Positions 4,408-54,868 of a DNA stretch of 61,298 nucleotides are shown here, one piece after another. Position numbers and translations under genes: made by a program. The notes under the pieces were generated by a model. The model saw only the letters and a program-made list of their open reading frames with translations, searched no databases and was not told where the DNA came from. Every line of letters starts with the position of its first letter. The first letter of the stretch is position 1. Origin of the DNA: Hugenholtzia roseola DSM 9546 (GTDB lineage: Bacteria; Bacteroidota; Bacteroidia; Cytophagales; Bernardetiaceae); assembly GCF_000422585.1 (NCBI RefSeq), contig NZ_KE383880.1, positions 128,001 to 189,298 of the forward strand, read 5' to 3'.

Positions 4408-6495
4408 CTACCATTTCAGACCCAAAATCAAAACGTCATCTATTTGGGCTTCGCCGCCCTGCTCACGCCAACTTTCGAAGGCTTGGTCTAAAAGGTGGGC
4501 TTGGGTAGTGAGCTTTTCTGTCGCAATTTCCTCTAATAATTTTTTAAGCCTTGCGATACCAAATTTTCGGTTGTTTTCGCCCCCAAATTGGTCTTGAAAG
4601 CCGTCGGAAAGGAGATAGAAAACAGTGGGCGAAGTCGTATCGATGCTTTTTTTGGTAAAAAGGCGTTCCTGCTCGCGCTGCTCGCCGCCGATAGGCATCT
4701 TGTCGCCTTTGAGCAAATGCAGCCCTGTATGATTGAAATAGAGAAGCGGATTTTTAGCTCCTGCAAATTCTATTTTTTGGGTCAGGGTATCTATGACTAT
4801 CAGACTCAAATCCATGCCGTCGCGATTGGCAGTATGAGCCTGTTGGAGAGCCTCTCGCACGCCTTTGTGGAGGGCGTTGAGAATCAGGTCGGGGCTTGTT
4901 TGGCGGTCTTGACGGACAATTTTGTGTAAAATTTCGTTGCCCAAAACGGTCATGAAAGCCCCCGAAACGCCATGTCCTGTGCAATCTATGGCGGCAACGA
5001 CGATTTTTTCGCCTACTTTTTCTACAAAATAAAAATCGCCTGAAACGATGTCGCGCGGCTTGAAAAGGATAAAAAATTCGGGCAATAGGCTTTCAATGGC
5101 TTCTCTTTTGGGCAGAAAAGCCTCCTGAATCCGTCTTGCGTAGTTGATGTTTTGCGTAATGTGCAGGTTTTGTTCTTCTAAGGCGCGTTTCTGTATTTGC
5201 AACTCTTGGGTGCGCTGCTCTACTTTTTCTTCCAAAACCAAATTTTGCTGGGCTATGATGCGGCGATTTTCCTCCGCAATCACTAATTTTTCGCGCTCGG
5301 CTTCTTTGCTGCGATAGCCCAAACCCAACGAAAAAACAATCAATTCTACCAAAACGCCCACCTGCACGACAACGCCATCAGTATCAGGATTGGCACTTGA
5401 AAAAATAACTTCTTTGAGAATTGCAAAAAATAGGGGCAGCGTCATTGCCAAATAGCCCAAGACGATATAAGTTGTCAAAACTTTGCTAACTTTCCACGTT
5501 GCGCCGATAAGCACCAAGCCGCCCAAAATATCTATCAGAAAAAGAACCTGAATCCCTGCATTTTCCAAAATGAGGCGAGGCGTGTCGTGATAATACAAAA
5601 GCGCAAGCACAATCGTAAGCAGGCGAAAATAGACCCAAAAGCGAAAATAGCGATTGAGTTGGGGTCTGATTTGTGGAATGTGTAAAAAATAGCGAATAAA
5701 TTGGGTGTAAAGCAAGGTTACAAAAAGTGCTGCAAAATTGGTAAAAACAGTGAGCAAGATAGGCTCTTCCCAAACAAAAAGAAAGGTATCTTCAAGCCCA
5801 ACGATTGCCATGCCCAAGATATAAAATGCGTAGTAAAAATAAGCCTTGTCGCGGACAATAAAAAAGAAGAAAAGATTATAGAAAAACATCAGCAGAAAAG
5901 CTCCCCGAAAAAATAGCTGTCGTCCTCGCTGTTGCGCTTGTTGTGCCAGAGCCACTTCGGGAATTTGAACGATAAAGCCTTCATTTTCAAGGTCTTGATA
6001 CGAATTTCGCGCCCTTAAAAGAAGCGTAAGGGTATCGGCAGCAGGAATTTCGAGCAACAGGGCAGGCGATTTGTCTTGCCAATTTCGCTTGGAAAGTGGC
6101 ACGTGCAGCCCCGTTTGGAGCGATTGCAAAACCTTTTGTTTGCTATCAAAAAGTAGGGCTTCGAGGCTATCAAAAGGGGGAACGGTGAGCAGATAGCGCG
6201 TTTGGGTAGGGTTTTGGTTGAGGAGTTTGATTTTAAAAAAATAAGAAACACGCGGTTTGAAGTGGGCAGGCAGGGTTTGATTTTTTGCCCAAAGGGAATC
6301 CTGCAAAAAATAGGCAGGCGAAAAATCTTGTAGCGCGGTGCTTTCATAAAAGGCTACCCAATCGGGCGCAAGCCGTTTTTCTAAGGGTGCATTTTTTTCT
6401 AAAATTAGCGTTTTTTCTTGCGCCCAAAGCGCATTCGAACCTAAAAATCCTACCAAAAAAATAAAAACATTGGCTAAAAAAATGCGAAAAGCCAT
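4408..6495 (-). CDS. 7TM receptor (7TMR-DISM-like extracellular domain plus multi-pass membrane region) fused to a SpoIIE/PP2C-type serine phosphatase
   Basis: ORF 4408..6663. A signal-peptide-like Met (MAFRIFLANVFIFLVGFLGSNALWAQEK) sits at 6493-6495. There are many hydrophobic helices in the middle, then a coiled coil. The C-terminus carries NINYARRIQEAFLP, DIVSGDFYF and AAIDCTGHGVSGAFM, hallmarks of the SpoIIE/PP2C phosphatase domain. Confidence 0.8.
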   Translation of the reverse strand: MAFRIFLANVFIFLVGFLGSNALWAQEKTLILEKNAPLEKRLAPDWVAFYESTALQDFSPAYFLQDSLWAKNQTLPAHFKPRVSYFFKIKLLNQNPTQTRYLLTVPPFDSLEALLFDSKQKVLQSLQTGLHVPLSKRNWQDKSPALLLEIPAADTLTLLLRARNSYQDLENEGFIVQIPEVALAQQAQQRGRQLFFRGAFLLMFFYNLFFFFIVRDKAYFYYAFYILGMAIVGLEDTFLFVWEEPILLTVFTNFAALFVTLLYTQFIRYFLHIPQIRPQLNRYFRFWVYFRLLTIVLALLYYHDTPRLILENAGIQVLFLIDILGGLVLIGATWKVSKVLTTYIVLGYLAMTLPLFFAILKEVIFSSANPDTDGVVVQVGVLVELIVFSLGLGYRSKEAEREKLVIAEENRRIIAQQNLVLEEKVEQRTQELQIQKRALEEQNLHITQNINYARRIQEAFLPKREAIESLLPEFFILFKPRDIVSGDFYFVEKVGEKIVVAAIDCTGHGVSGAFMTVLGNEILHKIVRQDRQTSPDLILNALHKGVREALQQAHTANRDGMDLSLIVIDTLTQKIEFAGAKNPLLYFNHTGLHLLKGDKMPIGGEQREQERLFTKKSIDTTSPTVFYLLSDGFQDQFGGENNRKFGIARLKKLLEEIATEKLTTQAHLLDQAFESWREQGGEAQIDDVLILGLKW

Positions 6496-6659
6496 TTCAG
6501 ACACAAACTTTTTGGTATCTAAAAAATGGCTTCTCTGAAAATAGCTCTCCTGCCGCATGCGCTTTATTTGTTGTCTTTTTTTGTTTTGTAAAAAACGCAA
6601 GGTAGCCATCTTTCGCTGCAAAAGCAAATTTGCGGCATCGAGGATTTTCCAACAGCTTT

Positions 6660-7319
6660 TCAAAAATCTTTGCCTTGCGAAAAATAATCTGCTCCCCCTT
6701 CCTGCGGCTCTATGGCGATAAGACGCGCCAAGGTCATCTTGACCAAAATGGCGGAGGCTTCGGGTATGGAAATGGCGGCAAGTTTGGCGAAATTTTCTAC
6801 ATTGATGCGCTTATGACTCCCCAAATATTTGAGTAGCCACTGCTCTTTTTCGCCATAATTGACAAAGGTATCTTTGGGATTGCTTTCGGCTTTCAAAATC
6901 TTGCGCATCTCACGACTGGCTTGTAGGCTTTTATCCAAACTGCGAATGTAGGCGCGACCGATTTTGCCCTTCGAGTCGTGCAAGAGAAAGACGGGCTTTT
7001 GGGTGTGGGGTTTGATGTCGAAGACCAAGACCTCTTTTCCCTCTGTGCGCGGCACTTCGATTCGATGGAGTTGGTATTCTATCTGCGGCTTGCAAAACTT
7101 TTGCAGGGTAGTGGCAAGTGCGTAAAGTTCCTCGTCGGGGTGTTTGAGTCCATTGATAGTGCCATCATCGGAAACGCCAATAATAAGTTTGCCACCTTTG
7201 GTATTGGCAAAGGCAACGGCTTCACGCGCAATTTTATGCGGATAATAGACTTTGCGTTTAAATTCTATTTCCAAACCTTCGCCTTGTGCAACAAAACGGC
7301 GTAGTTCTTTGAAGGTCAT
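6660..7319 (-). CDS. AlbA_2 (divergent AAA-4 / Schlafen-like) putative DNA-binding domain protein
   Basis: N-terminal ELRRFVAQGEGLEIEFKRKV...REAVAFANTKGGKLIIGVSDDGTINGL is the typical AlbA_2 motif set. Confidence 0.55.
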   Translation of the reverse strand: MTFKELRRFVAQGEGLEIEFKRKVYYPHKIAREAVAFANTKGGKLIIGVSDDGTINGLKHPDEELYALATTLQKFCKPQIEYQLHRIEVPRTEGKEVLVFDIKPHTQKPVFLLHDSKGKIGRAYIRSLDKSLQASREMRKILKAESNPKDTFVNYGEKEQWLLKYLGSHKRINVENFAKLAAISIPEASAILVKMTLARLIAIEPQEGGADYFSQGKDF

Positions 7320-8355: not shown

Positions 8356-10347
8356 TTGGCTTTCCGAAAAGCCTTTTCAAACTATTCATCTTTTGTCTTC
8401 TCTCTCATGACGCGCATCAAGCCCTCGATTTTGGAACTATTGGAAAAGGAAGAGTCCATTTTTTTGAAAATGGATAAATATACGGAGGTGAAAGAAATCA
8501 TCACAACCGACCCCCTTTTCAAAGCCACCTCTTGGGCAGGCTACCGCTTTTTGGCGCAAATGCCCCCTGAATTAGAGCCTATTATCGCCGAATTGGTCTT
8601 CAAGACCATACAAAAGCAAACCCTACAAAGCCTCACACTCAACCAGACGCTGCACCCTTTGTTGCCTTTTTCTATCAAAATTAAGTTCTTTCCTACCGAT
8701 AAAAATACCATAGGCGCAACCCTAACACGATACAAAGAAGATTATATCGCCACTAAATTTTACGAGCGCGTGCCTGTCATGACGCTTTATCTAAATGAAA
8801 CCGACGAGGTAATTTGGGCAAATCAGCAGTTTTATAGGAAAGCAGCCTTCGAGCCTACGCAACTTATTTCAGAAAATGCACGTGATTTTTTGAAAATAAA
8901 TCCCAAAATCTTACAACATGATGCCTTAGCCATCAAAGAGCCGCACCTGCGCACAGAATACAAACTTTTAAAAGGCGATGGAGGCTTTTTGCACGTTATC
9001 CTGACGGCAACGCGCCAATACGACGACGAAGGGCGATTTATTTGTACGGTAGTGGTTTTGCGCGATATTACCGAAATGAAGCTCACCCAAATAGAATTAG
9101 AGTACCAAAAACTTTCTATTGATGAGGCGGCGATTGTGGCGGCTACTGATGCAAAAGGCGATATTATTTATGTCAATAACAAATTTTGTAAGATATCGAA
9201 ATATTCGCGCGAAGAACTGATTGGGCAAAATCACCGCTTGCTCAAATCGGGCTATCATGAGCCTTCTTTTTTTGTAGAGATGTGGAAAACTATCGCTTCG
9301 GGCAAGGTCTGGCGCGGCGAAGTCTGCAACAAAGCCAAAGACGGTTCGCTATATTGGGTCTATACGACGATTATCCCCTTTTTAGACGAAAAAGGAAAGC
9401 CCTACCGCTATCAGTCTATCCGCTTCGAAATTACGAAAAGAAAAGAATTAGAGGACGAAATCAAACACTATACCGAGCATCTGGAAGAAGTAGTAGAGGA
9501 GCGCACACAGGAATTAAAGTTCAAAAGCGATTTGCTTTTTGAAATGAATGAAGAACTGCTGTCGCAAAACGAAAGATTAGAAACTAAAAATAAGTACATT
9601 CAACAAAGCATCAACTATGCCCAACGCATACAAGATGCGATTTTACCCAAAGAGGCACATCTGCCTGCTTTTGTCAAAGATTACTTCCTGCTTTATCAGC
9701 CAAAGGACATTGTTTCGGGCGATTTTTATTGGTGGTATCAAGATGCAGAAACACAGCGTTTTGTGTGGGTCATTGCCGACTGCACAGGGCATGGCGTACC
9801 CGGTGCTTTTATGTCTATGATTGGCATGACGCTTTTAGATGAAATTGTCAAGACCAAAAATATCTTTGCGCCTGCCGAAATTCTCAATCAGATGCGCGTA
9901 GAAATTGGGCGAGCCTTGCAGCAGGATATTACACAAAATCGCGACGGCATGGATATGAGCGTAGTCTGTTTTGAGGGAAAGACCCAAAAAATCCACTTTG
10001 CAGGAGCGCGAAACCCCATTTTATTGATTCAACAAGGGCGTTCTTATTGGCTAAAAGGCGATAAAATGAGCATTGGAGGCAGACTGGTGCGCAACGAACC
10101 TTTCCAAGAACAGACCTTTGATTGGCTCGAAGACACACAAATCTATGCCTTTTCAGATGGCTACGCCGACCAGTTCGGCGGCGAAGACCTGCGCAAATTT
10201 TTGAGTGCCAATTTCCGTAGCCTGCTTCTTTCGCAAGCGCACCTCCCTATGAGCGAACAGAAAGCCGCTATCCAAGCCGCCCACAAAGCATGGAAAGCAG
10301 GGCAAGACCAAATCGACGACATCTTAGTGATGGGCTTGCGGGTGTGA
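8356..10347 (+). CDS. PAS/PAC sensor fused to a SpoIIE/PP2C-type serine phosphatase
   Basis: Two PAS-like blocks (for example IIYVNNKFCKISKYSREELIGQNHRLLKSGYH...GEVCNKAKDGSLYWVYTTIIPFLDEKGKPYRYQSIRFEITKRK). Then a coiled coil, then SINYAQRIQDAILP, DIVSGDFYWW, ADCTGHGVPGAFMSMIG and SDGYADQFGG. The start is ambiguous between 8356, 8407 and 8470. Confidence 0.8.
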   Translation: MAFRKAFSNYSSFVFSLMTRIKPSILELLEKEESIFLKMDKYTEVKEIITTDPLFKATSWAGYRFLAQMPPELEPIIAELVFKTIQKQTLQSLTLNQTLHPLLPFSIKIKFFPTDKNTIGATLTRYKEDYIATKFYERVPVMTLYLNETDEVIWANQQFYRKAAFEPTQLISENARDFLKINPKILQHDALAIKEPHLRTEYKLLKGDGGFLHVILTATRQYDDEGRFICTVVVLRDITEMKLTQIELEYQKLSIDEAAIVAATDAKGDIIYVNNKFCKISKYSREELIGQNHRLLKSGYHEPSFFVEMWKTIASGKVWRGEVCNKAKDGSLYWVYTTIIPFLDEKGKPYRYQSIRFEITKRKELEDEIKHYTEHLEEVVEERTQELKFKSDLLFEMNEELLSQNERLETKNKYIQQSINYAQRIQDAILPKEAHLPAFVKDYFLLYQPKDIVSGDFYWWYQDAETQRFVWVIADCTGHGVPGAFMSMIGMTLLDEIVKTKNIFAPAEILNQMRVEIGRALQQDITQNRDGMDMSVVCFEGKTQKIHFAGARNPILLIQQGRSYWLKGDKMSIGGRLVRNEPFQEQTFDWLEDTQIYAFSDGYADQFGGEDLRKFLSANFRSLLLSQAHLPMSEQKAAIQAAHKAWKAGQDQIDDILVMGLRV

Positions 10348-12296: not shown

Positions 12297-12359
12297 ATTG
12301 CTGCCTTAAAATATGATTTTGCTATGATTGATAGATTTTATCCCTGCTTGTGTTCTCAA

Positions 12360-12485
12360 AATTTGAGCGAAATAAAATTTGGATTGAACCTTTTTCGGGT
12401 CTGAAACGCCTTTGTGTTTCAATCAAACTTAGGACAAGGCAATGCCTTGTCCCTACATTTGAAAATGATTTTTTTAGAACCAAAC
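12360..12485 (+). repeat. MITE-like hairpin repeat, copy 1
   Basis: gaaataaaatttggattgaacc...tttcaatcaaacttaggacaaggcaatgccttgtccctacatttgaa...tttttagaac. Confidence 0.75.
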
Positions 12486-18626: not shown

Positions 18627-19194
18627 AGATTTTTTAGAATAGATTGGGTAGGTTTCGTAGTGGGGAGCAGAGGGGCGGCAAATTTTCTTCTGCCAACATT
18701 TAGTACGCGAAGGAACTAAGCAGAAAACTTATATCAGAATTGCGTTTCTTTGTAACGAAAAACCCTTTATAGAGTTGGGTCGGAGCTGCATTTTGTCCCG
18801 CTTTCGGCGACAAAAAAGAAGGGTCTATGCCTTCAAATAGGCTTATGAAAAGCCTTTCCTCTTTTCTACTGCTGCAAATATGATACAGAATCGCGGTTTT
18901 TTATGAAAATTTGAAGAAAGAAAATAAAAAAACTCGAAAAGGCGCGTGCTTTTTGGTGGGAAATGCGGAAATAAGGGAAGAATGTAGTGCCTTTGAAGCG
19001 ATTTGGGTCGGAAGTAGTAATTTTTGAGAATCGTAAAGAAGAAGAATATCCGCTATTGGAAGGGTAAGATACGCAAAAAAACAGCGTCTTTCCCTACCAT
19101 AACTAAAAAAGGCGAAAAATAGGTTTTTTATTTTTGAAAAAAGCCCAAAAACAGAATTTAGGCACAAATAAAAAGCCTTACACAAAATTTTATA

Positions 19195-19292
19195 CCAAAG
19201 ACTAAGAGCCAACCCTAATTACTATCAACATAACATCATCTATTTATTTGAGGTTTCCTTTTCAATTTTCTAAGTCTGCTGCAAGTTTTGTG
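19195..19292 (-). pseudogene. decayed remnant of the 3' end of a SpoIIE/PP2C sensor gene, paralogous to 20900-20990
   Basis: About 85% nucleotide identity to 20899-20990 (the C-terminal coding end of the 1165-aa phosphatase). Its reverse complement encodes ...QNLQQT*KIEKETSNK*MM...DDVMLIVIRVGS*, aligning with ...QNLQQTLENWKGNLKQIDDITLIGIRIDP*. Two in-frame stops are present. Confidence 0.5.
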
Positions 19293-19564
19293 CTTGCAGG
19301 ATAGGCAGTTGCAAAGAGAATTTTGTGGCTTCAAAGTGGGATTATTTTTTTGCTAATATTTTTCTATTTTACTATCTTTGTAGTATCTTACAATGCAAAG
19401 CCAAGGTTTCGTTATTCGTAGTGTTCCCATAACCAGAAAATAGCCCAAATAGTAGTATTGTCAATAGTGCAAATCTCAAATAGCGGATACAAAAAGGCAT
19501 AAAAAAATAGTAATCTCTAAAAAAAGCGTATCTTCACACTCTAATTTAGCGCATAAAGCCCTTT
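19293..19564. repeat. about 280-bp Rpn-flanking repeat R, copy 1 (immediately upstream of rpn-1)
   Basis: About 90% identical to 20438-20722. It contains the block aaaagcataaaaaaat(a/g)gtaatctctaaaaaaa(g/t)cgta(t/c)cttcacactctaatt(t)agcgcataaag directly before the rpn start codon. Confidence 0.85.
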
Positions 19565-20413
19565 ATGGAAAACGAAAAACCTAATCAAAAAGAACAAAAT
19601 CTTTACGATAAAATTTTAAAGGAAAATATCTTATCGTATGTCTTACAATTTTCAGAAAAACAGTTGGGATTTCGCATCAAAAAGCACGCTTTATTAAAAG
19701 ATAAATTACAAACTACCTTAGAACGAGAGGCGGATTTTCTAATTTTTATCACCACCCAAGACGAAAAAGAATTTATCCTACAATTAGAGTTTCAAGCAAG
19801 AGATGAACCTAATATGGTGCTTCGTATGCAAGAATATCATGCCATTTTACAAAAAAAATACCAAATACCTGTTATTCAAATCGTTTATTACTTAGGCGAA
19901 ACGCCCAGCAATATGCGTGCTACCCTTGCGCCATCAGAGGTTTTCACAGGCTTTCAATTAAAATCTTTTAGAGATTATTCCTACAAAGAGTTTATCGAAT
20001 CTGAAAATGCCGAAGAGGTCATTATGGCAGTTTTGGCGGATTTCGAAAAGGAAAAGCAGGAAGAAGTGATTAGTAAAATTTTATTCCGCCTTTCGCAACT
20101 AAAAACAGATATTACTGCGTTAAATAAGTATGTCAAGCAGTTGCTTGTTTTGGCGCGTTTGCGCAATAAACTTCCAAAAATCATTCAAAACCAATTAGGC
20201 AATATGGGAACGATAGGATACGACATCGAAAAAGATGACTTTTATTTGCAAGGCTTAGAAAAGGGCAAAATAGAAGGTGAACGCGCTGGCGAGTTGAAGG
20301 CTCGTCATGAATTAGCGATTTCTTGCTTACAAGATGGGCTTTCTGTGGAGAAAACTGCTAAACTTACAAAATTATCCATCGAGGAAGTTCGGAAGTTGAG
20401 TAAAGAGTTGTAA
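19565..20413 (+). CDS. Rpn-family (YhgA-like) PD-(D/E)XK recombination-promoting nuclease / putative transposase
   Basis: N-terminal ...LEREADFLIFITTQDEKEFILQLEFQ... carries a D...E-x-Q core as in YhgA/Rpn nucleases. The C-terminal tail has GLEKGKIEGE repeats and an HTH-like end LSVEKTAKLTKLSIEEVRKL. Confidence 0.75.
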   Translation: MENEKPNQKEQNLYDKILKENILSYVLQFSEKQLGFRIKKHALLKDKLQTTLEREADFLIFITTQDEKEFILQLEFQARDEPNMVLRMQEYHAILQKKYQIPVIQIVYYLGETPSNMRATLAPSEVFTGFQLKSFRDYSYKEFIESENAEEVIMAVLADFEKEKQEEVISKILFRLSQLKTDITALNKYVKQLLVLARLRNKLPKIIQNQLGNMGTIGYDIEKDDFYLQGLEKGKIEGERAGELKARHELAISCLQDGLSVEKTAKLTKLSIEEVRKLSKEL

Positions 20414-20437: not shown

Positions 20438-20722
20438 GTTTGTGCAGGATAGTCAGCGGCAAAGAGAATTTTATGGCTCCAAAGTGGGGTTATTTTTTTG
20501 CTAATATTTTTCTATTTTGTTATCTTTGTAGTATCTTACAACGCAAATCCAAGGTTTCGTTATTCGTAGTGTCCCAGTGACCAAAAAGTAACCCGAATAG
20601 TAGTATTGTCAATAGTGCAAAGCTCAAATAACACATACAAAAAAGCATAAAAAAATGGTAATCTCTAAAAAAATCGTACCTTCACACTCTAATTAGCGCA
20701 TAAAGTCTTGTCTTTTCAAATT
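20438..20722. repeat. about 280-bp Rpn-flanking repeat R, copy 2 (downstream of rpn-1), with an orphan promoter-like block not followed by an rpn gene
   Basis: Direct repeat of 19293-19564. It is followed by a MITE-like element and then the 3' end of the phosphatase gene. Confidence 0.85.
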
Positions 20723-20857
20723 TAAAACAAAATAAAATTTGGGCAGAACCCTATTTTTGGGTACTAAAACCCTTTTTTGTTTCAATCTCACTTCGGACAA
20801 GGCAATGCCTTGTCCCTACATTTGAATCTGTTTTTTTAGAATTTAACATCACTGCCC
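20703..20857 (+). repeat. MITE-like hairpin repeat, copy 2
   Basis: Shares aaataaaatttgg ... tttcaatctcacttcggacaaggcaatgccttgtccctacatttgaa ... tttttagaatttaacatcactgcc with the other copies. Confidence 0.75.
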
Positions 20858-20899
20858 TTATAAGGCTTAGTCGCAGACGATAAGCCTTAGCCACGAAGA

Positions 20900-23800
20900 C
20901 TAAGGGTCAATCCTAATTCCTATCAAGGTAATATCATCTATTTGTTTGAGATTTCCCTTCCAATTTTCCAAAGTCTGCTGCAAGTTTTGTTTTTGCGCCT
21001 CTGTTGGCAGTAGAGGCAAAGTAGTGAGTAGATTTTTCAGGTTTGTTACCATAAACTTGCGCCCTCGCTCGCCGCCAAATTGGTCTTGGAAACCGTCAGT
21101 AAGAAGGTAGAAAAAAGTAGGCACTTGAATACTGCCCTGATGTAGCTCAAATTGGCGCGGTTTGTCCTTTTCCAACTGCCCTTGCTGCCCACCGATAGCC
21201 CTTTTCGTACCTTTAAGAATTTGTAGCGTAGGGGTTTGCTCGGCTTCGAGTGGCAAAAAATAAAGCGGATTCATCGCTCCTGCATAAGAAAAGGCAGAAT
21301 AACGCGGTCTTTGAGGTTCAAAATTCGCACTTTTTTCCAATGTTAGCACGACAATGTCCATGCCGTCGCGCACCTGTGAATCTTTTTGTTTGAGTGCTTC
21401 CATAATGCCCTGATGCAGTTGTGTCAGGATTTGAGCAGGCTCGATTATCTTTTCTAAATTGATAATTTTATTTAAAAGTTCGTTTCCTATCATAGACATA
21501 AAAGCACCGGGTACGCCATGCCCTGTGCAATCAGCAACGGCGATAAGTGTATGATTTTCAAGCTCTTGCAAGAAATAAAAATCACCTGAAACGATGTCTT
21601 TGGGCTGATATAAAATAAAGAAGTTTTCCTTTCCAAATGCCTTTTCGAAGCGGCTTTCGAAGGGCAAAATTGCCTCTTGTATGCGTTTGGCGTAATTGAT
21701 GCTGGCAGTGATGTTGTTATTTTTTTCTTCGAGGTCGTCTTTTTGTAGATTGACTAAATCTAAGGTTTGTCGCATTTCCTCATTAAGCTGTTTGAGATTT
21801 TCAGCCTGCACTTCTATTTCTTCTTTTTGCTGCTCTAATTCTAAATTTTTGAGTTGAATTTCCTCTGTTCTTTCCTTAACAAGGCGTTCCAAACGCAGCT
21901 TTGAAGCACGCAGGCGATAGGTATAAGCACGCACAAAGGCATAAAGAAGCCCAAATCCGAGCAATAAGAAAAGTCCATACGCCCACAAACGACGATACCA
22001 AGGCGGTGCAATCGTAAAAGCAACTTTTGTAGGCAAACTTTCTATTTTCTGGCTATTTCGCGCCTGCACCCAAAAAGTATAGTGTCCTTCGGGCAAGTTG
22101 GTGTATTCCTTGCGCCTTTGCTCTGTCCAATCCGACCAAGTTTCTTCATAACCTTCCAACCAATAGCGATAACGATTTTGGTCTTCCTGATAAAAAGAAG
22201 GCGCGGCATAGGTAAAAACAAGCGCATTGAAGCGGTAAGGTAGTTCGAAGGGAGCGATTTGACCACCACTTTCACCTCCAAACAGTAGGCTATCGCGATA
22301 CGCCAAACTGACTTTGCGAATCAAAGTCTGATAAGGGACAGACTTGCCCAAATCGTGTTCGGGTTTGTAGCGAAAAACGCCCAGTGCGGTAGCAAACCAA
22401 AATGTAGGCGATTCGGATTGAGTATCGTAATAAAAGCGCGAAAGATAGTCGGGCAGAGGTGCAAGGGTAAGGGTATCTTGTACCCAAGTGTCGGCTTGAT
22501 TGCCCTGCCCTTTTGTAGGCACTTGTTCAGATTTGAACAACAAAGTCTTAGCCGAGGGCATCACCCAGTAGGAGGGCTTCGAATCGGCGATTTCTTGCAA
22601 AGGCAATAGATAAGGATAGGCAAAACGCGGATTCTGCCAATCCAGACCCCAAGGATTGTAAGACTTAAAAGATTGACTTTTTTCATCAAAAGTATAAATA
22701 CCTGATGCAGTAGAAAAAAGAATTTGGTTCTGCCAAGCGATAATTTTACAACTCTCTATTTTTTCCAAGCCCTTTGTATGGAGTTGTACCTTTGCTGTTT
22801 CTACGCCTTTTTTTGAACCTCTATCTTCCTGAAAATCAATAGAATAGAAACCTTCCTTAGGCGACCCCACCCACACTCTACCATCTGCCTGCTCCTGCAC
22901 AGAGCGCGAAATGACCTGCTCGAAGGCGGGAATCTTGCCCACACGCAAAAATTTATCTTCTTCTGCCTGATAGCGCAGCACCTCAAAGCCTTGATAGTTG
23001 GCTTTATAGACAATGTTGCTATCTATTTTAGAACGCCCAATCGCCATATTTGCCCATTCGCCATCTATATTTTGTGCAATTTTTTTGTTTTTGATGTAAT
23101 AAAACCCATAATTTCCACCTGCCACAATTAGGTCATCTTGAAAAGGCAGGAGCTGCCAACATTGTGTAGAAGGCAAGTTTGCTATGCGTTTGAATAGCTC
23201 TGCTTCCAGATAAAAAAGTCCATCGTTGGCGGAAACATATAAGGTTTGGTCGGCACTACGACAAATATCTGTCGTATAACTTTTCAAATTTTGTGGCTCT
23301 TTGTAGGCTGTAAAAGGTAGATGAATCGCAATTTGACTCAAACCCTTATCGGTTGCTACCCAAAGTGCCTGATTTTTATCTACAAAAACATAGTTAATGC
23401 TATTACTAATTAGACCAGAAGCCTCGTCTATGTGGTACAAAGTTTTCCCTGCGGCATTAAAAATTAGCACCCCTCTATCTTTAATGCCTAATACATAAAT
23501 ATCCTCGCCTTTTTTATCCTTTAAATGCGTGGCTACATAAACGCCCCTATCTTTGAGCAAATGCTGGTCTTCGAGCGGAAAAGCACTCACTTGTTTGCTT
23601 TCAATATCATACAAAAAAAGAGAGTCTATATTAAGCGGACAAAATAAAATTTTCTTCTGACCATAAGGCAGAGCCGCACGCAGGCTTAGGCTATGCGTAA
23701 AGATGTAATGCTCGCTTTCTAAAATCCATTTTTGATTTTCGAATCGGTACAAGCCCTTGCTGGTTTCATTTTTCCAAAAACCTGTACCTACTTCAAAGAT

Positions 23801-24397
23801 GTCTATTTTATCCGTTTCTGCCTCTACCTGATGATAAGAAAAGGTGCTATCTTGGGTATGAAAAATGTAGAGCCTATCTTCGCTCGAAAAGTAAAGGTCT
23901 TTTTCTATTTGATGCACCTCGGTAATAAAGGGCGTTTTCTCGATGCTATCAGGCAGGTACGGACGTAGAGAATGGTACTGCCATTTCCCTAAGGCGTTGA
24001 TTTTGAGATAGCCAAGGTCGTCATCATTGGCGACATAAGCAAGTGTAGGGTCTTTTTTATCAAAAAGCAAATGCCGAACTACGCCCCCACCTGTCTGCAT
24101 CTGCTGCCACTCTGCACCATCATAGACGAGCAAAGCGTCGCGATTGCCTACATATAATTTGCCTTGTGCGTCTTGCGCAAGCGTCCAGAGAACGGACGAG
24201 GCTTGATAGATTTTCTTGTCATAATTCTGAATAAAAGGCGTTCCCCAGCGTAAAGTAGGAGCGAGAGTCTGCTTTGCATTTGAAAGTTCTTTTTTTTGGC
24301 TCTTTGCCTCAAATGTACAAAAAAACGCAAGCCCAAGCAAAAAAACAACTTTGAGCCAATATCTAAAAAAAATGTGTGTGAAAAAGAAAGGAGTCAT
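20900..24397 (-). CDS. sensor protein: signal peptide, two-component-regulator-propeller (Reg_prop) repeats, Y_Y_Y domain, TM helix, coiled coil, SpoIIE/PP2C phosphatase
   Basis: 1165 aa. The long N-terminal beta-propeller-like region is followed by YRYWLEGYEETWSDWTEQRRKEYTNLPEGHYTFWVQARNS (Y_Y_Y) and the TM helix WAYGLFLLLGFGLLYAFV. Then SINYAKRIQEAILP, DIVSGDFYF, ADCTGHGVPGAFMSMIG and TDGFQDQFGG. Confidence 0.8.
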   Translation of the reverse strand: MTPFFFTHIFFRYWLKVVFLLGLAFFCTFEAKSQKKELSNAKQTLAPTLRWGTPFIQNYDKKIYQASSVLWTLAQDAQGKLYVGNRDALLVYDGAEWQQMQTGGGVVRHLLFDKKDPTLAYVANDDDLGYLKINALGKWQYHSLRPYLPDSIEKTPFITEVHQIEKDLYFSSEDRLYIFHTQDSTFSYHQVEAETDKIDIFEVGTGFWKNETSKGLYRFENQKWILESEHYIFTHSLSLRAALPYGQKKILFCPLNIDSLFLYDIESKQVSAFPLEDQHLLKDRGVYVATHLKDKKGEDIYVLGIKDRGVLIFNAAGKTLYHIDEASGLISNSINYVFVDKNQALWVATDKGLSQIAIHLPFTAYKEPQNLKSYTTDICRSADQTLYVSANDGLFYLEAELFKRIANLPSTQCWQLLPFQDDLIVAGGNYGFYYIKNKKIAQNIDGEWANMAIGRSKIDSNIVYKANYQGFEVLRYQAEEDKFLRVGKIPAFEQVISRSVQEQADGRVWVGSPKEGFYSIDFQEDRGSKKGVETAKVQLHTKGLEKIESCKIIAWQNQILFSTASGIYTFDEKSQSFKSYNPWGLDWQNPRFAYPYLLPLQEIADSKPSYWVMPSAKTLLFKSEQVPTKGQGNQADTWVQDTLTLAPLPDYLSRFYYDTQSESPTFWFATALGVFRYKPEHDLGKSVPYQTLIRKVSLAYRDSLLFGGESGGQIAPFELPYRFNALVFTYAAPSFYQEDQNRYRYWLEGYEETWSDWTEQRRKEYTNLPEGHYTFWVQARNSQKIESLPTKVAFTIAPPWYRRLWAYGLFLLLGFGLLYAFVRAYTYRLRASKLRLERLVKERTEEIQLKNLELEQQKEEIEVQAENLKQLNEEMRQTLDLVNLQKDDLEEKNNNITASINYAKRIQEAILPFESRFEKAFGKENFFILYQPKDIVSGDFYFLQELENHTLIAVADCTGHGVPGAFMSMIGNELLNKIINLEKIIEPAQILTQLHQGIMEALKQKDSQVRDGMDIVVLTLEKSANFEPQRPRYSAFSYAGAMNPLYFLPLEAEQTPTLQILKGTKRAIGGQQGQLEKDKPRQFELHQGSIQVPTFFYLLTDGFQDQFGGERGRKFMVTNLKNLLTTLPLLPTEAQKQNLQQTLENWKGNLKQIDDITLIGIRIDP

Positions 24398-24780
24398 ATC
24401 GTGCCAATGCTATTTTTGGGTAGCCCCTGAAAGGCGCAAGAAAGGAGCGCGGTGAGAAAAACTATTTTTTGCCTACCAATAAGATGCTTTTCAGCGCATT
24501 TTACACATTTTTCGCCACAAAAAAGCTATTTTTTTGTTTTTTTTAGAAAAAAAGCTCTCAATAGCAAGCCCTACGATAGTTATTTCTGGAAATAAGTAAG
24601 GAAGAATAGGCTTAAACTCTGCTTTATCCGTATTCAAAAAAACACGCCTTTGGTCTTGTTCCACGACTACAACCTACCTTTTCAGCAAAGCTCAAATAAA
24701 ACGTACAAAAAAGCATAAAAAATGTAGTCGTATCCAAAAAAATTGTACCTTCACACTCTAATTAGCGCATAAAATCTTTT

Positions 24781-25641
24781 ATGGAAGACAAAAAACCTAA
24801 TCAAAAAGAACAAAACCTTTACGATAAAATTTTAAAAGAAAATATCTTATCGTATGTCTTGCAATTTTCAGAAAGGCAGTTGGGATTTTACATTAAAAAA
24901 CACGCTTTATTAAAAGATAAACTACAAACCACCTTAGAACGAGAAGCCGACTTTTTAGTTCTTATCACCACCCAAGACGAAAAAGAATTTATCCTGCAAT
25001 TAGAATTTCAGGCAAGAGATGAGCCAAATATGGTACTTCGCATGCAAGAGTATCATGCTATCTTACAAAAGAAGTATCAAAAACCTATTATTCAAATCGT
25101 ATATTACTTAGGTGAAACGCCCAGTAATATGCGTGCTACCCTTGCGCCTTCGGAGGTTTTTACAGGCTTTCAATTAAAATCTTTTAGAGATTATTCTTAC
25201 AAAGAATTTATCGAATCTGAAAATGCCGAAGAGGTCATTATGGCAGTTTTGGCGGATTTCGGAAAGGAAAAACAGGAAGAAGTCGTCAGTAAAATTTTAT
25301 TCCGCCTTTCGCAACTAAAAAGCGACGTTACTGCGTTAAATAAGTATGTCAAGCAGTTGCTTGTTTTAGCGCGTTTGCGCAATAAACTTCCAAAAATCAT
25401 TCAAAACCAATTAGGCGATATGGGAACGATAGGATACGACATCGAAAAAGATGACCTTTATTTACAAGGTTTGCAAAAGGGCGAGTTAAGAGGCTTAGAG
25501 AAAGGCTTAGAGAAAGGAAAGCTCGAAGCTCGCCGTGAATTAGCAATTTCTTGCTTACAAGACGGGCTTTCTGTAGAGAAAACTGCTAAACTTACAAAAC
25601 TATCCATCGAGGAAGTTCGCAAGTTGAGTGAGGAATTGTAA
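24781..25641 (+). CDS. Rpn-family PD-(D/E)XK nuclease, paralog of 19565-20413
   Basis: About 93% aa identity to rpn-1. It carries an 11-aa insertion (LRGLEKGLEKG) in the EKG-repeat tail. The same upstream promoter-like block lies at 24700-24780. Confidence 0.75.
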   Translation: MEDKKPNQKEQNLYDKILKENILSYVLQFSERQLGFYIKKHALLKDKLQTTLEREADFLVLITTQDEKEFILQLEFQARDEPNMVLRMQEYHAILQKKYQKPIIQIVYYLGETPSNMRATLAPSEVFTGFQLKSFRDYSYKEFIESENAEEVIMAVLADFGKEKQEEVVSKILFRLSQLKSDVTALNKYVKQLLVLARLRNKLPKIIQNQLGDMGTIGYDIEKDDLYLQGLQKGELRGLEKGLEKGKLEARRELAISCLQDGLSVEKTAKLTKLSIEEVRKLSEEL

Positions 25642-25728
25642 GTTTATTAGGTGTACTTCGTCGTTACTTGTGCAGGATAGTGAGTGGCAAAAACAATTTT
25701 GTAGCTTCAAAGGGTGTTTTTTGCTATT

Positions 25729-25790
25729 TTTGTAGTATCTTACAGCGCAAATCAAAGATTTGCCGCACTGATAGGTCGTAGTCGGAGACT
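25729..25790. repeat. inverted-repeat element IR-a (left arm)
   Basis: tttttgtagtatcttacagcgcaaatcaaagatttgccgcactgatagg is the reverse complement, with few mismatches, of 26826-26877 and 27243-27294. It contains the internal hairpin gcaaatc-aaa-gatttgc. Confidence 0.7.
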
Positions 25791-25883
25791 ACGCCCAACG
25801 GGGGCTTATCCCACTGGCGTTAAAAGCGTGGATTGGTACGTAAATGATAAAAAAGGAAACAAAGTAATAATTCAAAAAATAAA

Positions 25884-26303
25884 ATGAAAAAATTTTTTTT
25901 ATATTTAATAGCTATTTTTACGTTACTTTCTAGTAATAGTGCAAAAAACACAAGCGTGGTTTTAGACAGTAATACGCAATACTACATAAAAAAAGTAAAA
26001 AAAGTAAAAAAATGGTATATTATTTACGCAATGAAAAACAAAGTATTATATAAAATAGTTTCAAAAGATGACAATACTTTTAACAAAAACTGCAATAAAA
26101 TAACTATTGGAAAACAATATGATTTAATTTTGAAATCGCACAAAGAGTCTGCACCAGTCATTAATGGAGTTCTTATTGCTCCTGTTGGATATAGTGGATG
26201 TTATCATTTTGATAGTGAAACGACTATATGTTTAGAACCTAATAAAGATATTTATGATTTATTTTATACAAATAACTTAAAAGGAATTTGCTATGTTAAA
26301 TAA
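25884..26303 (+). CDS. hypothetical secreted/lipoprotein-like small protein, very low GC (possible orphan immunity protein)
   Basis: N-terminal signal peptide MKKFFLYLIAIFTLLSSNSA. GC is visibly far lower than the about 46% surroundings. It lies immediately upstream of, and overlaps, the RHS C-terminal fragment. Confidence 0.4.
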   Translation: MKKFFLYLIAIFTLLSSNSAKNTSVVLDSNTQYYIKKVKKVKKWYIIYAMKNKVLYKIVSKDDNTFNKNCNKITIGKQYDLILKSHKESAPVINGVLIAPVGYSGCYHFDSETTICLEPNKDIYDLFYTNNLKGICYVK

Positions 26304-26787
26304 AAACTTCTGGCAATACAACGGCAAGGAGAAGGAGACGTTTTTGGGGCTGCACCTCACCGACTACGGCTGGCGACAACAAGACCCACAACTTTGTAGG
26401 TTTTGGGGTATAAACCCGCTGGCAGAGAAGTATTACAGCCTCACGCCCTTTGCCTATGTAGCCAATAATCCTATCAATGCGATTGACCCTGATGGGAGGG
26501 AGATAACCTACACTTTTTCTGAAGATATGACAGGTGAAGAAAAAATGGAATTTTTACAAGGTCTTTCTAAATTATACGAAGATTCTAATACTTTTCAAAC
26601 AATGTTTGATGATTTAGCTTCTTCCAAACATGAACATAAAATACAAATATTTGGATATAACTCAAAAGACGTAAACAACCGCGAACATACGACTAACCCT
26701 GATGACAAAATTGGTAGGGGTAGCCAGATGAACTTGGGGCTTGGTGGCTCCCCCGTTGTCCGCAGTGTTCCCATAACCAAAGAATAA
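26293..26787 (+). CDS. orphan RHS-repeat-associated core C-terminal fragment plus variable C-terminal (putative toxin) domain
   Basis: NFWQYNGKEKETFLGLHLTDYGWRQQDPQLCRFWGINPLAEKYYSLTPFAYVANNPINAIDPDGRE is the conserved RHS/YD core end (NGKEKD...YDYGARxYDPxLGRF...DPL...Y.YV.NNP...DPDG). Beyond it lies a divergent, AT-rich 95-aa tail. There is no upstream RHS repeat body. Confidence 0.7.
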   Translation: MLNKNFWQYNGKEKETFLGLHLTDYGWRQQDPQLCRFWGINPLAEKYYSLTPFAYVANNPINAIDPDGREITYTFSEDMTGEEKMEFLQGLSKLYEDSNTFQTMFDDLASSKHEHKIQIFGYNSKDVNNREHTTNPDDKIGRGSQMNLGLGGSPVVRSVPITKE

Positions 26788-26825
26788 ACCAAAAGTTTGG
26801 CGTAGCCTCCGACTACGACCTATCA

Positions 26826-26877
26826 GTGCGGCAAATCTTAGATTTGCGTTGTAAGATACTGCAAAAATAGTCTTTAC
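26826..26877. repeat. inverted-repeat element IR-b (right arm, copy 1)
   Basis: cctatcagtgcggcaaatcttagatttgcgttgtaagatactgcaaaaatag is identical over about 52 bp to 27243-27294 and inverted relative to 25729-25790. Confidence 0.75.
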
Positions 26878-27242: not shown

Positions 27243-27294
27243 CCTATCAGTGCGGCAAATCTTAGATTTGCGTTGTAAGATACTGCAAAAATAG
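27243..27294. repeat. inverted-repeat element IR-b (copy 2, direct with 26826-26877)
   Basis: Exact 52-bp repeat of 26826-26877. Confidence 0.75.
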
Positions 27295-27424
27295 CAAAAA
27301 ACAAATACAAAATGCTATTTTTTAGATGTTTTGATAGCAGCAGCCCTGCAAAGCGAAGATTTAGTTTTATTTTTTGTATTCAGAAGACTTTGCCGAATGG
27401 GGAGTAGCAATATCAAGTCTTGCG

Positions 27425-27545
27425 AAAAGCCTTATCTTATTAAATTGGAAACAAAATAAAATTAGGCTCAAACCTTGTTTTGAGCCTAAAAACTCTTTTT
27501 ATTTCAATCTCACTTCGGACAAGGCAGTGCCTTGTCCCTACTCAC
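27425..27545 (+). repeat. MITE-like hairpin repeat, copy 3
   Basis: ...ttggaaacaaaataaaattaggctcaaaccttgttttgagcct...tttcaatctcacttcggacaaggcagtgccttgtccctac. Confidence 0.75.
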
Positions 27546-48289: not shown

Positions 48290-48456
48290 AAAAGTCTTGT
48301 TTTTCGAATGAGAAACAAAATAAAATTTGGGCTGAACCTTATTTTTTGGCAGGAAAACTCTTTTTTATTTCAATCTCACGACAGGTAGGGCAGTAGCTTA
48401 TCCCTATCTTTCCACCTACTAACTTTTAGAATTTAATACCACTGCCGCTTTCCCTC
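48290..48456 (+). repeat. MITE-like hairpin repeat, copy 4 (variant central hairpin)
   Basis: ...cgaatgagaaacaaaataaaatttgggctgaacc...tttcaatctcacgacaggtagggcagtagcttatccctatc...tttagaatttaataccactgcc. Confidence 0.7.
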
Positions 48457-54761: not shown

Positions 54762-54868
54762 GAAAAGCCTTGTCTTTTCGAATTGGAAACGAAATAAAAT
54801 TTGGGTCTGAAAGCCTTTTTTATTTCAATCTCACTTCGGACAAGGCAGTGCCTTGTCCCTACAAAAGC
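54762..54868 (+). repeat. MITE-like hairpin repeat, copy 6
   Basis: gccttgtcttttcgaattggaaacgaaataaaatttgggtctgaaagcc...tttcaatctcacttcggacaaggcagtgccttgtccctac. Confidence 0.75.

What the first reader, a model, noticed from the sequence alone, without database searches (positions are those of the whole stretch)
19195..19292. Fossil 3' end of a second PP2C sensor gene fused directly to the Rpn flanking repeat
Segment 19195-19292 is about 85% identical to 20899-20990, the last about 30 codons of the propeller-sensor phosphatase. It carries in-frame stops (..QNLQQT*KIEKETSNK*..DDVMLIVIRVGS*), so it is a decayed duplicate. At 19293 it switches abruptly into the R repeat. The intact gene's homologous stretch instead continues into coding sequence. 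This marks an ancient breakpoint where an Rpn unit (repeat + rpn) replaced the body of a paralogous sensor gene. It is direct physical evidence that this locus is remodelled by recombination.
Basis: seen in the sequence. Interest (0 to 1): 0.5.

Follow-up and report, generated by a model that had tools for sequence, protein, structure and literature searches.

The report
Dead duplicate of phosphatase gene end
A 100-base, mutation-riddled copy of the last 32 codons of the neighbouring sensor-phosphatase gene sits exactly where a repeated Rpn-nuclease gene block was spliced into the chromosome; it is a genuine but ordinary recombination scar, not a working element.

Summary
Window 19198-19297 aligns to 20896-20996, the last 32 codons plus stop of the 1165-aa Reg_prop/Y_Y_Y/SpoIIE sensor phosphatase. 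Identity is 85% and far above chance. The copy has a 1-nt deletion and two nonsense codons. It switches at 19295-19297 into repeat R1, which flanks rpn1.

The "second paralogous gene whose body was replaced" reading is only partly supported:
- No other fragment of such a gene is in the window.
- No close paralogue exists in the protein database; the next best hit is 42% identical.
- The 14 substitutions fall 5/4/5 over codon positions. Functional rpn1/rpn2 give 24/9/54.
- The copy's changes hit residues conserved in homologues (K; W and Q turned into stops; G, invariant).

So the copy was near-identical to the present gene when it died.

R1's left edge is a breakpoint inside a longer rpn-R array, not an element end. 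Both ends of the R1-rpn1-R2 block show short microhomology: 10/12 nt on the left, about 8 nt on the right.

Best reading: a scar of illegitimate recombination that displaced or duplicated the gene's own 3' end, resembling icd/icdC at prophage e14.

The source is Hugenholtzia roseola. Its genome was not searchable, so genome-wide tests were impossible. Interest is low to moderate.

The parts
19198..19297 (-). A': decayed copy of the last 32 codons + stop (+4 nt) of the sensor phosphatase gene. It carries a 1-nt deletion, two nonsense codons and 14 substitutions.
19143..19163 (-). Terminator-like hairpin plus U-run, 39 nt downstream of the fossil's stop codon. It may be the original terminator of the gene at this chromosomal site.
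   Evidence: pattern match and fold only; weak, z = -1.8
19286..19297 (.). Junction J1 between fossil and R1. In this 12-nt T-rich zone the PP2C sequence (TTTTGTTTTTGC) and the rpn 3' flank (TGTTGTTTGTGC) match at 10 of 12 positions. The switch lies at TGC|AGGATAG.
   Evidence: sequence read directly
19295..19558 (+). R1, the repeat upstream of rpn1. It is 90% identical to R2 and is a composite of four parts: the rpn 3' flank; a promoter-like core (TTTG-N20-TATCTTTG at about 19350-19384); a 40-nt piece resembling the 3' end of ORF 26293-26787; and the 94-nt rpn 5' flank.
19565..20413 (+). rpn1, 282 aa, an Rpn/YhgA-like PD-(D/E)XK nuclease homologue. It is 90% identical to rpn2 at the protein level.
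20443..20705 (+). R2, the repeat downstream of rpn1. Its homology with R3 runs on leftward into the rpn coding end. It ends at the position where an rpn ATG would be.
20702..20709 (.). Junction J3 between R2 and D1. The 8-nt overlap AAAGTCTT is shared by the R end (7/8 in the rpn2 flank) and the D1 start (7-8/8 in other D1 copies).
20702..20860 (+). D1, a dispersed intergenic repeat of about 150 nt with 5 copies in the window. It contains a REP-like GTAG-palindrome.
20896..20996 (-). A: the functional 3' end of the intact gene, homologous to the fossil.
20900..24397 (-). Intact 1165-aa sensor phosphatase (Reg_prop propeller, Y_Y_Y, SpoIIE/PP2C). It is 100% identical to a Hugenholtzia roseola protein.
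24685..24778 (+). Partial R: only the 94-nt rpn 5' flank, directly upstream of rpn2. It is 88% identical to R2 and 81% to R1.
24781..25641 (+). rpn2, 286 aa.
25656..25799 (+). R3: the rpn 3' flank plus the promoter-like core downstream of rpn2, with a 24-nt deletion. It continues as the left arm of a 76-nt inverted repeat.

Best explanation
**What it is.** The segment is a non-functional relic. It is a copy of the 3' terminal 97 nt (32 codons + stop) of the adjacent sensor-phosphatase gene that became separated from any gene body and has since decayed neutrally.

**How it arose.** It was created when a piece of an rpn-R tandem array longer than one unit (R1-rpn1-R2; 1412 nt, repeat period 1148 nt) was joined by illegitimate, microhomology-level recombination to codon -33 of the phosphatase gene. 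This gives the present order: A' | R1-rpn1-R2 | D1 - A - gene body.

**Consequence.** One copy of the 3' end (A) stayed, or arrived, attached to the body and keeps the gene intact. The other (A') was displaced to the far side of the inserted block, next to what may be the gene's original terminator.

**Shown**
- the homology
- the disabling mutations
- the sharp junction
- that R1's left edge is a breakpoint and not a unit end
- the neutral substitution pattern

**Inferred**
- that the source was the gene's own 3' end or a then near-identical copy or allele, rather than an old paralogue
- that joining was microhomology-mediated (template switching, or homology-facilitated illegitimate recombination of incoming DNA)
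- that Rpn nuclease activity had any part in it (pure speculation)

The fragment itself has no predicted present function.
For: **Homology and decay**
- 85% identity over 101 columns, score 125 against shuffles 17.6 +/- 2.2; E = 2e-26.
- A frameshift plus TGA and TAA codons.
- The 14 substitutions are spread 5/4/5 over codon positions, whereas the functional pair rpn1/rpn2 gives 24/9/54. P(<=5 of 14 at position 3 | 0.65) = 0.024.
- All four polarisable changes are derived in the fossil, judged against ten homologous C-termini: the K of the QK motif, the W of W[KR]G, the Q of Q[IV]DD and the invariant G.

**No second gene found**
- No second gene body is present in the window.
- No protein above 42% identity to the intact gene exists among 5.8 billion proteins, a set that includes H. 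roseola entries.

**Junctions**
- R2 and R3 share continuous homology from the rpn coding end into R. R1's homology stops 30 nt after the equivalent of the rpn stop codon.
- Microhomology is 10/12 at J1 and about 8 nt at J3.
- There are no terminal inverted repeats at the block ends.

**Terminator**
- A terminator-like hairpin plus U-run follows the fossil. The intact gene's stop is followed by a hairpin without a U-run and then D1.

**Relative age and literature**
- rpn1/rpn2 dS is 0.43. The A/A' distance is 0.155, so the block did not arise together with rpn2 by one local tandem duplication.
- Published work proposes that Rpn nucleases promote RecA-independent recombination through primer-template switching (PMC5350276).
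- rpn genes lack inverted terminal repeats and target-site duplications and have variable ends (PMC10400941).
Against: - With only 14 substitutions, the codon-position test is weak (P about 0.02-0.12, depending on the assumed third-position share).
- Four of the seven amino-acid replacements are conservative (I>V twice, T>M, G>V is not). A short functional life as part of a second gene therefore cannot be excluded.
- Homology beyond the stop codon is marginal: about 70% over about 45 nt, with 14-27 of 1000 shuffles scoring as well. The left limit of the duplicated segment is undefined.
- No empty-site or pre-insertion allele could be examined. The H. roseola genome is absent from the searchable DNA collections, and no close relative exists in them.
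- The microhomologies are T/A-rich and were identified post hoc.
- D1 lies inside the duplicated interval without a counterpart left of the fossil. This needs either a later D1 insertion or a donor that already carried it.
Confidence: 0.6

Rival explanations
1. **The first reader's model.** Two complete paralogous sensor-phosphatase genes once lay in tandem. The R-rpn unit, followed or accompanied by a deletion, replaced the body and promoter of the left-hand one and left only its last 32 codons.
For: - The final layout is compatible with this model.
- The window holds four SpoIIE sensor genes, so the family does expand in this genome.
- Several replacements in the fossil are conservative.
- R1's left edge is a deletion-type breakpoint in an rpn-R array, as expected if a deletion ran from inside the gene to just past an upstream rpn0.
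Against: - No trace of a second body exists, and no extant close paralogue was found.
- The substitution pattern is neutral rather than third-position biased. Any such paralogue must have been nearly identical to the present gene when truncated. That makes it a recent segmental duplicate, not an old paralogue.
- The model needs at least two events: a whole-gene duplication, then a replacement or deletion.
Confidence: 0.25
2. **The fragment belongs to the repeat.** The 100-nt fragment was picked up at another locus and travels with R-rpn copies. It would then say nothing about the history of this particular site.
For: - R is demonstrably a patchwork that already embeds another gene-end-like piece: 19410-19449 resembles the 3' end of ORF 26293-26787.
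- rpn flanks are duplicated as solo pieces in a related Bernardetiaceae MAG.
Against: - R2, R3 and the partial R upstream of rpn2 do not carry the fragment. At the equivalent position, R2 and R3 continue into the rpn coding end.
- The only homologue of the fragment is the gene 1.6 kb away.
Confidence: 0.07
3. **A site-specific integrative element** that targets the 3' end of the phosphatase gene and carries a replacement 3' end. This is how prophage e14 behaves at icd, leaving the icdC pseudogene.
For: The same topology applies: an intact gene running into the inserted block, and a displaced C-terminal fragment at the block's far end (icd/icdC is described in PMC13626634).
Against: - The 1.6-kb block encodes only rpn1.
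- rpn1 is not a tyrosine or serine recombinase, and no such gene is present in the block.
- There is no identical att core; the repeats are 85% identical and the longest perfect run is about 20 nt.
- The block's left edge is a breakpoint within an rpn-R array.
- The block has no inverted repeats at its ends.
Confidence: 0.04
4. **Chance or low-complexity similarity.** There is no real homology.
For: The region is AT-rich; GC is 0.33 for 19001-20000.
Against: - The alignment score lies about 49 sd above shuffles, and blastn gives E = 2e-26.
- The stop codon is conserved.
- The DD[IV]..[IV]..R motif is recognisable at the protein level, E = 1e-5.
Confidence: 0.005

Closest known systems
icd / icdC at cryptic prophage e14 of E. 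coli K-12 (Hill, Gray & Brody 1989; described in PMC13626634)
   Same: - A protein-coding gene stays intact because inserted DNA supplies a replacement 3' end.
[quoted passage not shown]
- The two copies form direct repeats.
   Different: - e14 is a 15-kb prophage with its own integrase and a defined att site, and its excision re-forms a working chimeric icd.
- Here the insert is 1.6 kb and carries only an Rpn nuclease gene, with no integrase.
- The repeats are 85% identical, the fossil is riddled with stops, and the junction is a random breakpoint with microhomology.
Displaced 'orphan' C-terminal modules of Rhs / CdiA polymorphic toxin loci (own knowledge: Poole et al. 2011; Koskiniemi et al. 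2014)
   Same: - Old 3' ends of a gene are pushed downstream by recombination that installs a new 3' end.
- An orphan Rhs-core cassette is in fact present 6 kb away in the same island (26293-26787).
   Different: - Orphan toxin tips stay intact with their immunity genes and can be reused.
- The PP2C fragment is only 32 codons and dead, and it is nearly the same sequence as the active end, so no new function is being swapped in.
Homology-facilitated illegitimate recombination and microhomology-mediated template switching (own knowledge: de Vries & Wackernagel 2002; the template-switch model for Rpn-stimulated recombination is in PMC5350276)
   Same: - One side of the rearrangement is seamless, within or right of the gene.
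- The other side is a join at 3-12 nt of microhomology.
- There are no transposon ends.
   Different: The mechanism is inferred from one junction pair only. Neither a donor nor an empty site is available, so HFIR, local template switching and deletion cannot be told apart.
rpn (recombination-promoting nuclease) gene neighbourhoods (PMC5350276; PMC10400941)
   Same: - rpn genes occur as single-gene insertions without inverted repeats or target-site duplications and with variable ends, as here.
- The paralogues differ by KG[IL]E-type four-residue repeats.
   Different: - Here rpn is embedded in a direct repeat of about 265 nt (R) on both sides. This is an array-like architecture not described in those papers.
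- The proteins score below the TIGR01784 cut-off.

Membership tests
Gene remnant / truncated pseudogene | Significant sequence homology to a functional gene | tested here: met
   85% over 101 columns, about 49 sd above shuffles; E = 2e-26; protein-level E = 1e-5
Gene remnant / truncated pseudogene | Disabling lesions and loss of most of the coding sequence | tested here: met
   A 1-nt deletion, TGG>TGA and CAA>TAA. Only 32 of 1165 codons are present, and the homology ends at the junction with R1.
Gene remnant / truncated pseudogene | Substitution pattern without coding constraint | tested here: met
   5/4/5 over codon positions against 24/9/54 for rpn1/rpn2. The invariant Gly is replaced. The sample is small.
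SpoIIE/PP2C sensor phosphatase (the intact parent gene) | Pfam SpoIIE (PF07228) domain above the gathering score | tested here: met
   45.7 bits against a cut-off of 25, plus Y_Y_Y at 48.3 bits and Reg_prop at 36.8 bits
Rpn / YhgA-like recombination-promoting nuclease (rpn1, rpn2) | Match to the family model (TIGR01784 / PF04754) above the curated cut-off | tested here: not met
   30.9 and 37.0 bits against a cut-off of 52.1 (E = 2e-7 and 3e-9). No Pfam hit at E <= 0.001. Homologues at 41-49% identity are named RpnC/YadD or Rpn family by NCBI or UniRef. They are therefore divergent relatives, not certified members.
Rpn / YhgA-like recombination-promoting nuclease (rpn1, rpn2) | Variable number of four-residue repeats (such as KGIE) in the C-terminal helix (PMC10400941) | tested here: met
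   rpn1, rpn2 and P0025 differ by KG[IL]E / KG[VL]E units in the region around alignment columns 260-290 (feature quoted)
Rpn / YhgA-like recombination-promoting nuclease (rpn1, rpn2) | Internally translated RpnS antitoxin; nuclease activity | not testable with these tools
   Needs ribosome profiling and biochemistry
Insertion sequence / transposon insertion | Terminal inverted repeats and a short fixed-length target-site duplication | tested here: not met
   No inverted repeat pairs the block ends 19295-19310 and 20695-20710. The flanking direct repeat is about 100 nt and 85% identical, and the left edge lies inside an rpn-R array.
Site-specific integrative element with a 3'-end-restoring att site (e14/icd type) | An integrase gene in the element and an identical att core at both ends | tested here: not met
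   The only ORF of at least 120 aa in the block is rpn1. The repeats are 85% identical and their longest perfect run is about 20 nt.

The most novel reading that the evidence does not exclude
The fossil and the two microhomology joints may be the footprint of how rpn genes spread. On this reading, a piece of an rpn-R tandem or circular form longer than one unit (1412 nt against a 1148-nt period) was copied into the 3' end of a chromosomal gene by nuclease-primed template switching. That is the mechanism Kingston et al. proposed for Rpn-stimulated RecA-independent recombination. The event would have duplicated about 100 nt of the target.

The solo copy of the rpn 5' flank in a Bernardetiaceae MAG (a perfect 66-nt repeat bracketing 3.6 kb of Rhs orphan cassettes) would be a second instance of the same process.
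Probability: 0.12. Interest if true: 0.6.

Novelty: new member of a known kind. Interest (0 to 1): 0.25.

Why it matters
By itself the fragment is a small, dead gene remnant of a kind found at many rearrangement junctions. Its modest value is as a dated, base-resolution breakpoint next to an rpn gene.

Published work notes that rpn genes move between genomes without inverted repeats or target-site duplications, and that how they move is unresolved (PMC10400941). Here both joints of an rpn block can be read. They show microhomology rather than transposon ends, which fits recombination or hitch-hiking rather than transposition.

The fragment also warns annotators that the ORF 18901-19212 overlapping it is probably spurious.

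Tried and rejected
**Searches that found nothing**
1. Genome-wide search for other fossils or R copies.
   - An exact-match scan of the 23-nt R core (TTTGYAGTATCTTACARYGCAAA) found nothing in genome contigs, metagenome contigs or viral contigs.
   - Exact-protein look-ups of the sensor gene, rpn1, P0001 and P0025 were not on record.
   - A protein-guided scan for rpn loci returned 28 loci, none from H. roseola.
2. Synteny with the nearest orthologue (Bernardetia sp., 42% identity). The context is unrelated.
3. Nucleotide similarity of R, D1, the fossil or the left intergenic region in 30 related loci. There was none.
4. Rfam at gathering thresholds over the whole window. Only one tRNA-Ser was found, so R and D1 are not known RNA families.

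**Ideas tested and not supported**
5. Extension of A/A' homology past the stop codon. It is marginal, with 14-27 of 1000 shuffles scoring as well, and is not claimed.
6. An rpn fragment hidden left of the fossil. tblastn gave nothing better than E = 0.28. The 21-nt complementary pair 18944-18964 / 19669-19689 is not colinear with its neighbour pair and was set aside.
7. One tandem duplication of a [gene + rpn] unit as the origin of both A/A' and rpn1/rpn2. This is disfavoured: rpn1/rpn2 dS is 0.43 while the A/A' distance is 0.155, and the unit lengths do not match (1699 against 4068 or 5216 nt).
8. Gene-conversion patches between PP2C paralogues, such as the 86-93% identity over 61-85 nt between 21464-21546 and 46090-46172. 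These lie in the catalytic-motif region and need no special explanation.

Full report
**1. The observation**

The minus-strand ORF 20900-24397 encodes a 1165-aa protein with Reg_prop, Y_Y_Y and SpoIIE (PP2C) domains. It is 100% identical to a 'triple tyrosine motif-containing protein' of Hugenholtzia roseola, which identifies the source organism.

A local alignment places window 19198-19297 against 20896-20996. It has 101 columns, one gap and 85% identity. The score is 125, against 17.6 +/- 2.2 (maximum 26) for 300 shuffles. In a window-wide blastn this is the only hit for that stretch (E = 2e-26). The 3' ends of two other SpoIIE genes in the window show no similarity to it, and the window-wide search finds nothing else, including in the fourth SpoIIE gene.

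On the minus strand the fragment reads ..LEN*KGNLK*IDDVMLIVIRVGS*. The intact gene reads ..LENWKGNLKQIDDITLIGIRIDP*. Upstream of LEN, a 1-nt deletion shifts the frame. The TAG stop is conserved at 19202-19204.

From 19295/19298 rightward the sequence is no longer PP2C-like. It is 90% identical to 20443-20705.

**2. Anatomy of the surroundings**

On the plus strand the order is:
- A' (19198-19297)
- R1 (19295-19558)
- rpn1 (19565-20413)
- R2 (20443-20705)
- D1, a dispersed intergenic repeat (20702-20860)
- a 35-nt hairpin spacer
- A, followed by the gene body (20896-24397, minus strand)
- 287 nt of unique upstream sequence
- a partial R (24685-24778)
- rpn2 (24781-25641)
- R3 (25656-25799)

*The rpn genes.* rpn1 and rpn2 are 90% identical proteins. 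They score below the cut-off against the Rpn family model TIGR01784 (31 and 37 bits against 52.1). Their homologues in other Cytophagales are named RpnC/YadD or YhgA-like. They differ from each other, and from a third H. roseola copy, by KG[IL]E-type four-residue repeats. That feature is described as characteristic of Rpn proteins (PMC10400941).

*R is not a unit with defined ends.* The three-way alignment shows that R2 and R3 are homologous continuously from the rpn coding end, through the stop codon, into R. R1's homology starts only 30 nt past the equivalent of the stop. R1's left edge is therefore a breakpoint in what was an rpn-R-rpn array.

*R2's right end.* R2 ends exactly where the rpn ATG would be, and D1 begins there.

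*Microhomology at both joints.* At J1 the PP2C sequence TTTTGTTTTTGC and the rpn flank TGTTGTTTGTGC match at 10 of 12 positions, directly left of the switch. At J3 the octamer AAAGTCTT is shared by the R end and the D1 start. No inverted repeats pair the block ends.

*Block length.* The block R1-rpn1-R2 is 1412 nt, which is one 1148-nt repeat period plus 264 nt.

**3. What kind of copy the fragment is**

Counting from the alignment, the 14 substitutions fall 5/4/5 on codon positions 1/2/3. Two create stop codons and there is one frameshift. For comparison, the functional pair rpn1/rpn2 shows 24/9/54 with dN/dS 0.11.

Against ten homologous C-termini, four fossil changes hit conserved residues, so the fossil carries the derived state at each:
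- the Lys of the conserved QK motif, replaced by Ala
- the Trp of W[KR]G, turned into a stop
- the Gln of Q[IV]DD, turned into a stop
- the invariant Gly of [IVF]G[ILV][RK], replaced by Val

The fragment has therefore diverged essentially as unconstrained DNA from a sequence very close to today's gene.

No other piece of a second gene is present in the window. The protein database contains H. roseola proteins, but it holds no relative of the sensor closer than 42% identity.

A terminator-like hairpin with a U-run follows the fossil at 19143-19163 on the minus strand. The intact gene's stop is followed by a hairpin without a U-run and then by D1. This hints, weakly, that the fossil marks the original 3' end at this site.

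**4. Mechanism**

The layout is A' - insert - A - body. This is the topology produced when DNA is recombined into the 3' part of a gene while a copy of the 3' end stays with the body. Three routes would give it:
- (a) Local template switching that copies an rpn-array segment and re-enters upstream.
- (b) Homology-facilitated illegitimate recombination of incoming DNA that already had rpn-R-D1 downstream of an allele of the gene. This needs one homologous crossover in the gene and one microhomology joint at J1.

The data cannot separate (a) and (b). Route (c) is possible only if the duplicate was young when truncated.

A single tandem duplication creating both A/A' and rpn1/rpn2 is unlikely. 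rpn1/rpn2 dS is 0.43 while the A/A' distance is 0.155, and the spacings differ.

A role for the Rpn nuclease itself is speculation. It is prompted by the published template-switch model for Rpn-stimulated RecA-independent recombination (PMC5350276) and by the finding that rpn genes lack inverted terminal repeats and target-site duplications and have variable ends (PMC10400941).

**5. Comparison with what is known**

- The closest textbook analogue is icd/icdC at prophage e14. There the inserted element supplies the working 3' end and the displaced C-terminal fragment remains as a pseudogene (PMC13626634). This locus lacks an integrase and an att core and has breakpoint-type ends, so it is not a member of that class.
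- Orphan Rhs/CdiA tips are a second analogue, and an orphan Rhs-core ORF lies in the same island.
- The fragment meets all tested criteria of an ordinary gene remnant.

**6. Limits**

The H. roseola genome is not in any searchable DNA collection. The nearest relatives are too distant for synteny and share no R sequence. The decisive tests are other R copies, empty-site alleles and a possible second gene. They could not be run and are listed under next steps.

**7. Verdict**

This is a real but ordinary recombination scar. Its interest lies only in giving base-level junctions next to an rpn gene. Interest is 0.25. The most novel reading, a footprint of Rpn-driven template-switch spread, has a probability of about 0.12.

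Noticed in passing
window 12347-12479, 20702-20860, 27426-27541, 48291-48446, 54764-54863: D1 is a dispersed intergenic repeat of about 150 nt with five copies in 61 kb, mostly just downstream of minus-strand genes.
- Its core is the palindrome GGACAAGGCARTGCCTTGTCCCTAC. On the minus strand this reads GTAG...hairpin, like REP elements.
- The same 24-mer occurs in 24 metagenome contigs with unrelated flanks, sometimes in tandem.
- The minus-strand RNA of 20700-20840 folds with z = -4.1.
   Followed up: partly
window 19377-19399, 20525-20547, 25729-25751 (+); 26843-26865, 27267-27289 (-): A 23-nt core (TTTGYAGTATCTTACARYGCAAA), preceded by TTTG-N20-TA..TTTG, occurs five times within 8 kb. By my reading this matches a Bacteroidota-type promoter. 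It faces rpn1, nothing (R2), a signal-peptide ORF, a small ORF, and the antisense of an Rhs-core ORF. No exact match was found in the genome, metagenome or viral collections.
   Followed up: partly
window 25724-25799 and 26795-26870 (also 27243-27303): 76-nt inverted repeats, 93% identical, carry that promoter-like core plus two small hairpins. They bracket a 1-kb segment holding ORF 25884-26303 and ORF 26293-26787. A third, 100%-identical 52-nt copy lies 424 nt further on. This could be an invertible or cassette-like segment.
   Followed up: no
window 26293-26787 (+): A 164-aa ORF begins with an RHS repeat-associated core motif (TIGR03696, 44 bits) and has no Rhs body upstream. It is an orphan toxin-tip-like cassette next to rpn2. 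In a related Bernardetiaceae MAG (L005) two such Rhs-core ORFs lie directly upstream of an rpn gene.
   Followed up: partly
window 19410-19449 and 20558-20597 vs 26754-26793: The middle of R is 80-83% identical to the last 11 codons plus stop of the Rhs-core ORF (VVRSVPITKE* against VIRSVPITRK* / VIRSVPVTKK*). R itself therefore embeds a second gene-end-like fragment, starting exactly where the promoter-like core ends.
   Followed up: partly
L005 374-439 and 4070-4135 (Bernardetiaceae bacterium MAG JAFIER010000166.1): A perfect 66-nt direct repeat of the rpn 5' flank brackets 3.6 kb containing two Rhs-core ORFs. Other rpn copies of this MAG sit at contig ends and share 40-75 nt of upstream flank. 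Solo rpn flanks are thus not unique to H. roseola.
   Followed up: partly
window 19565-20413, 24781-25641 and protein P0025: The three close H. roseola Rpn paralogues differ in the number of KG[IL]E-type four-residue repeats near the C-terminus. This is the hypervariable feature reported for RpnL/RpnS toxin-antitoxin pairs. rpn1 against rpn2 gives dS 0.43 and dN/dS 0.11.
   Followed up: partly
window 4408-6663 (-), 8356-10347 (+), 20900-24397 (-), 45583-47520 (-): Four SpoIIE/PP2C phosphatase genes with different sensor modules (7TMR-DISM, PAS, Reg_prop/Y_Y_Y propeller, HAMP) lie within 61 kb. They share short high-identity DNA patches only around the catalytic motif.
   Followed up: partly
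window 18944-18964 vs 19669-19689: A 21-nt stretch in the intergenic region left of the fossil is 90% reverse-complementary to codons about 35-42 of rpn1. It is not colinear with neighbouring matches and no rpn fragment was detected by tblastn. This is probably chance and remains unexplained.
   Followed up: partly
window 18901-19212 (-): A 103-aa TTG-start ORF begins inside the fossil and runs through the terminator-like hairpin. It has no family hit and is probably spurious.
   Followed up: partly
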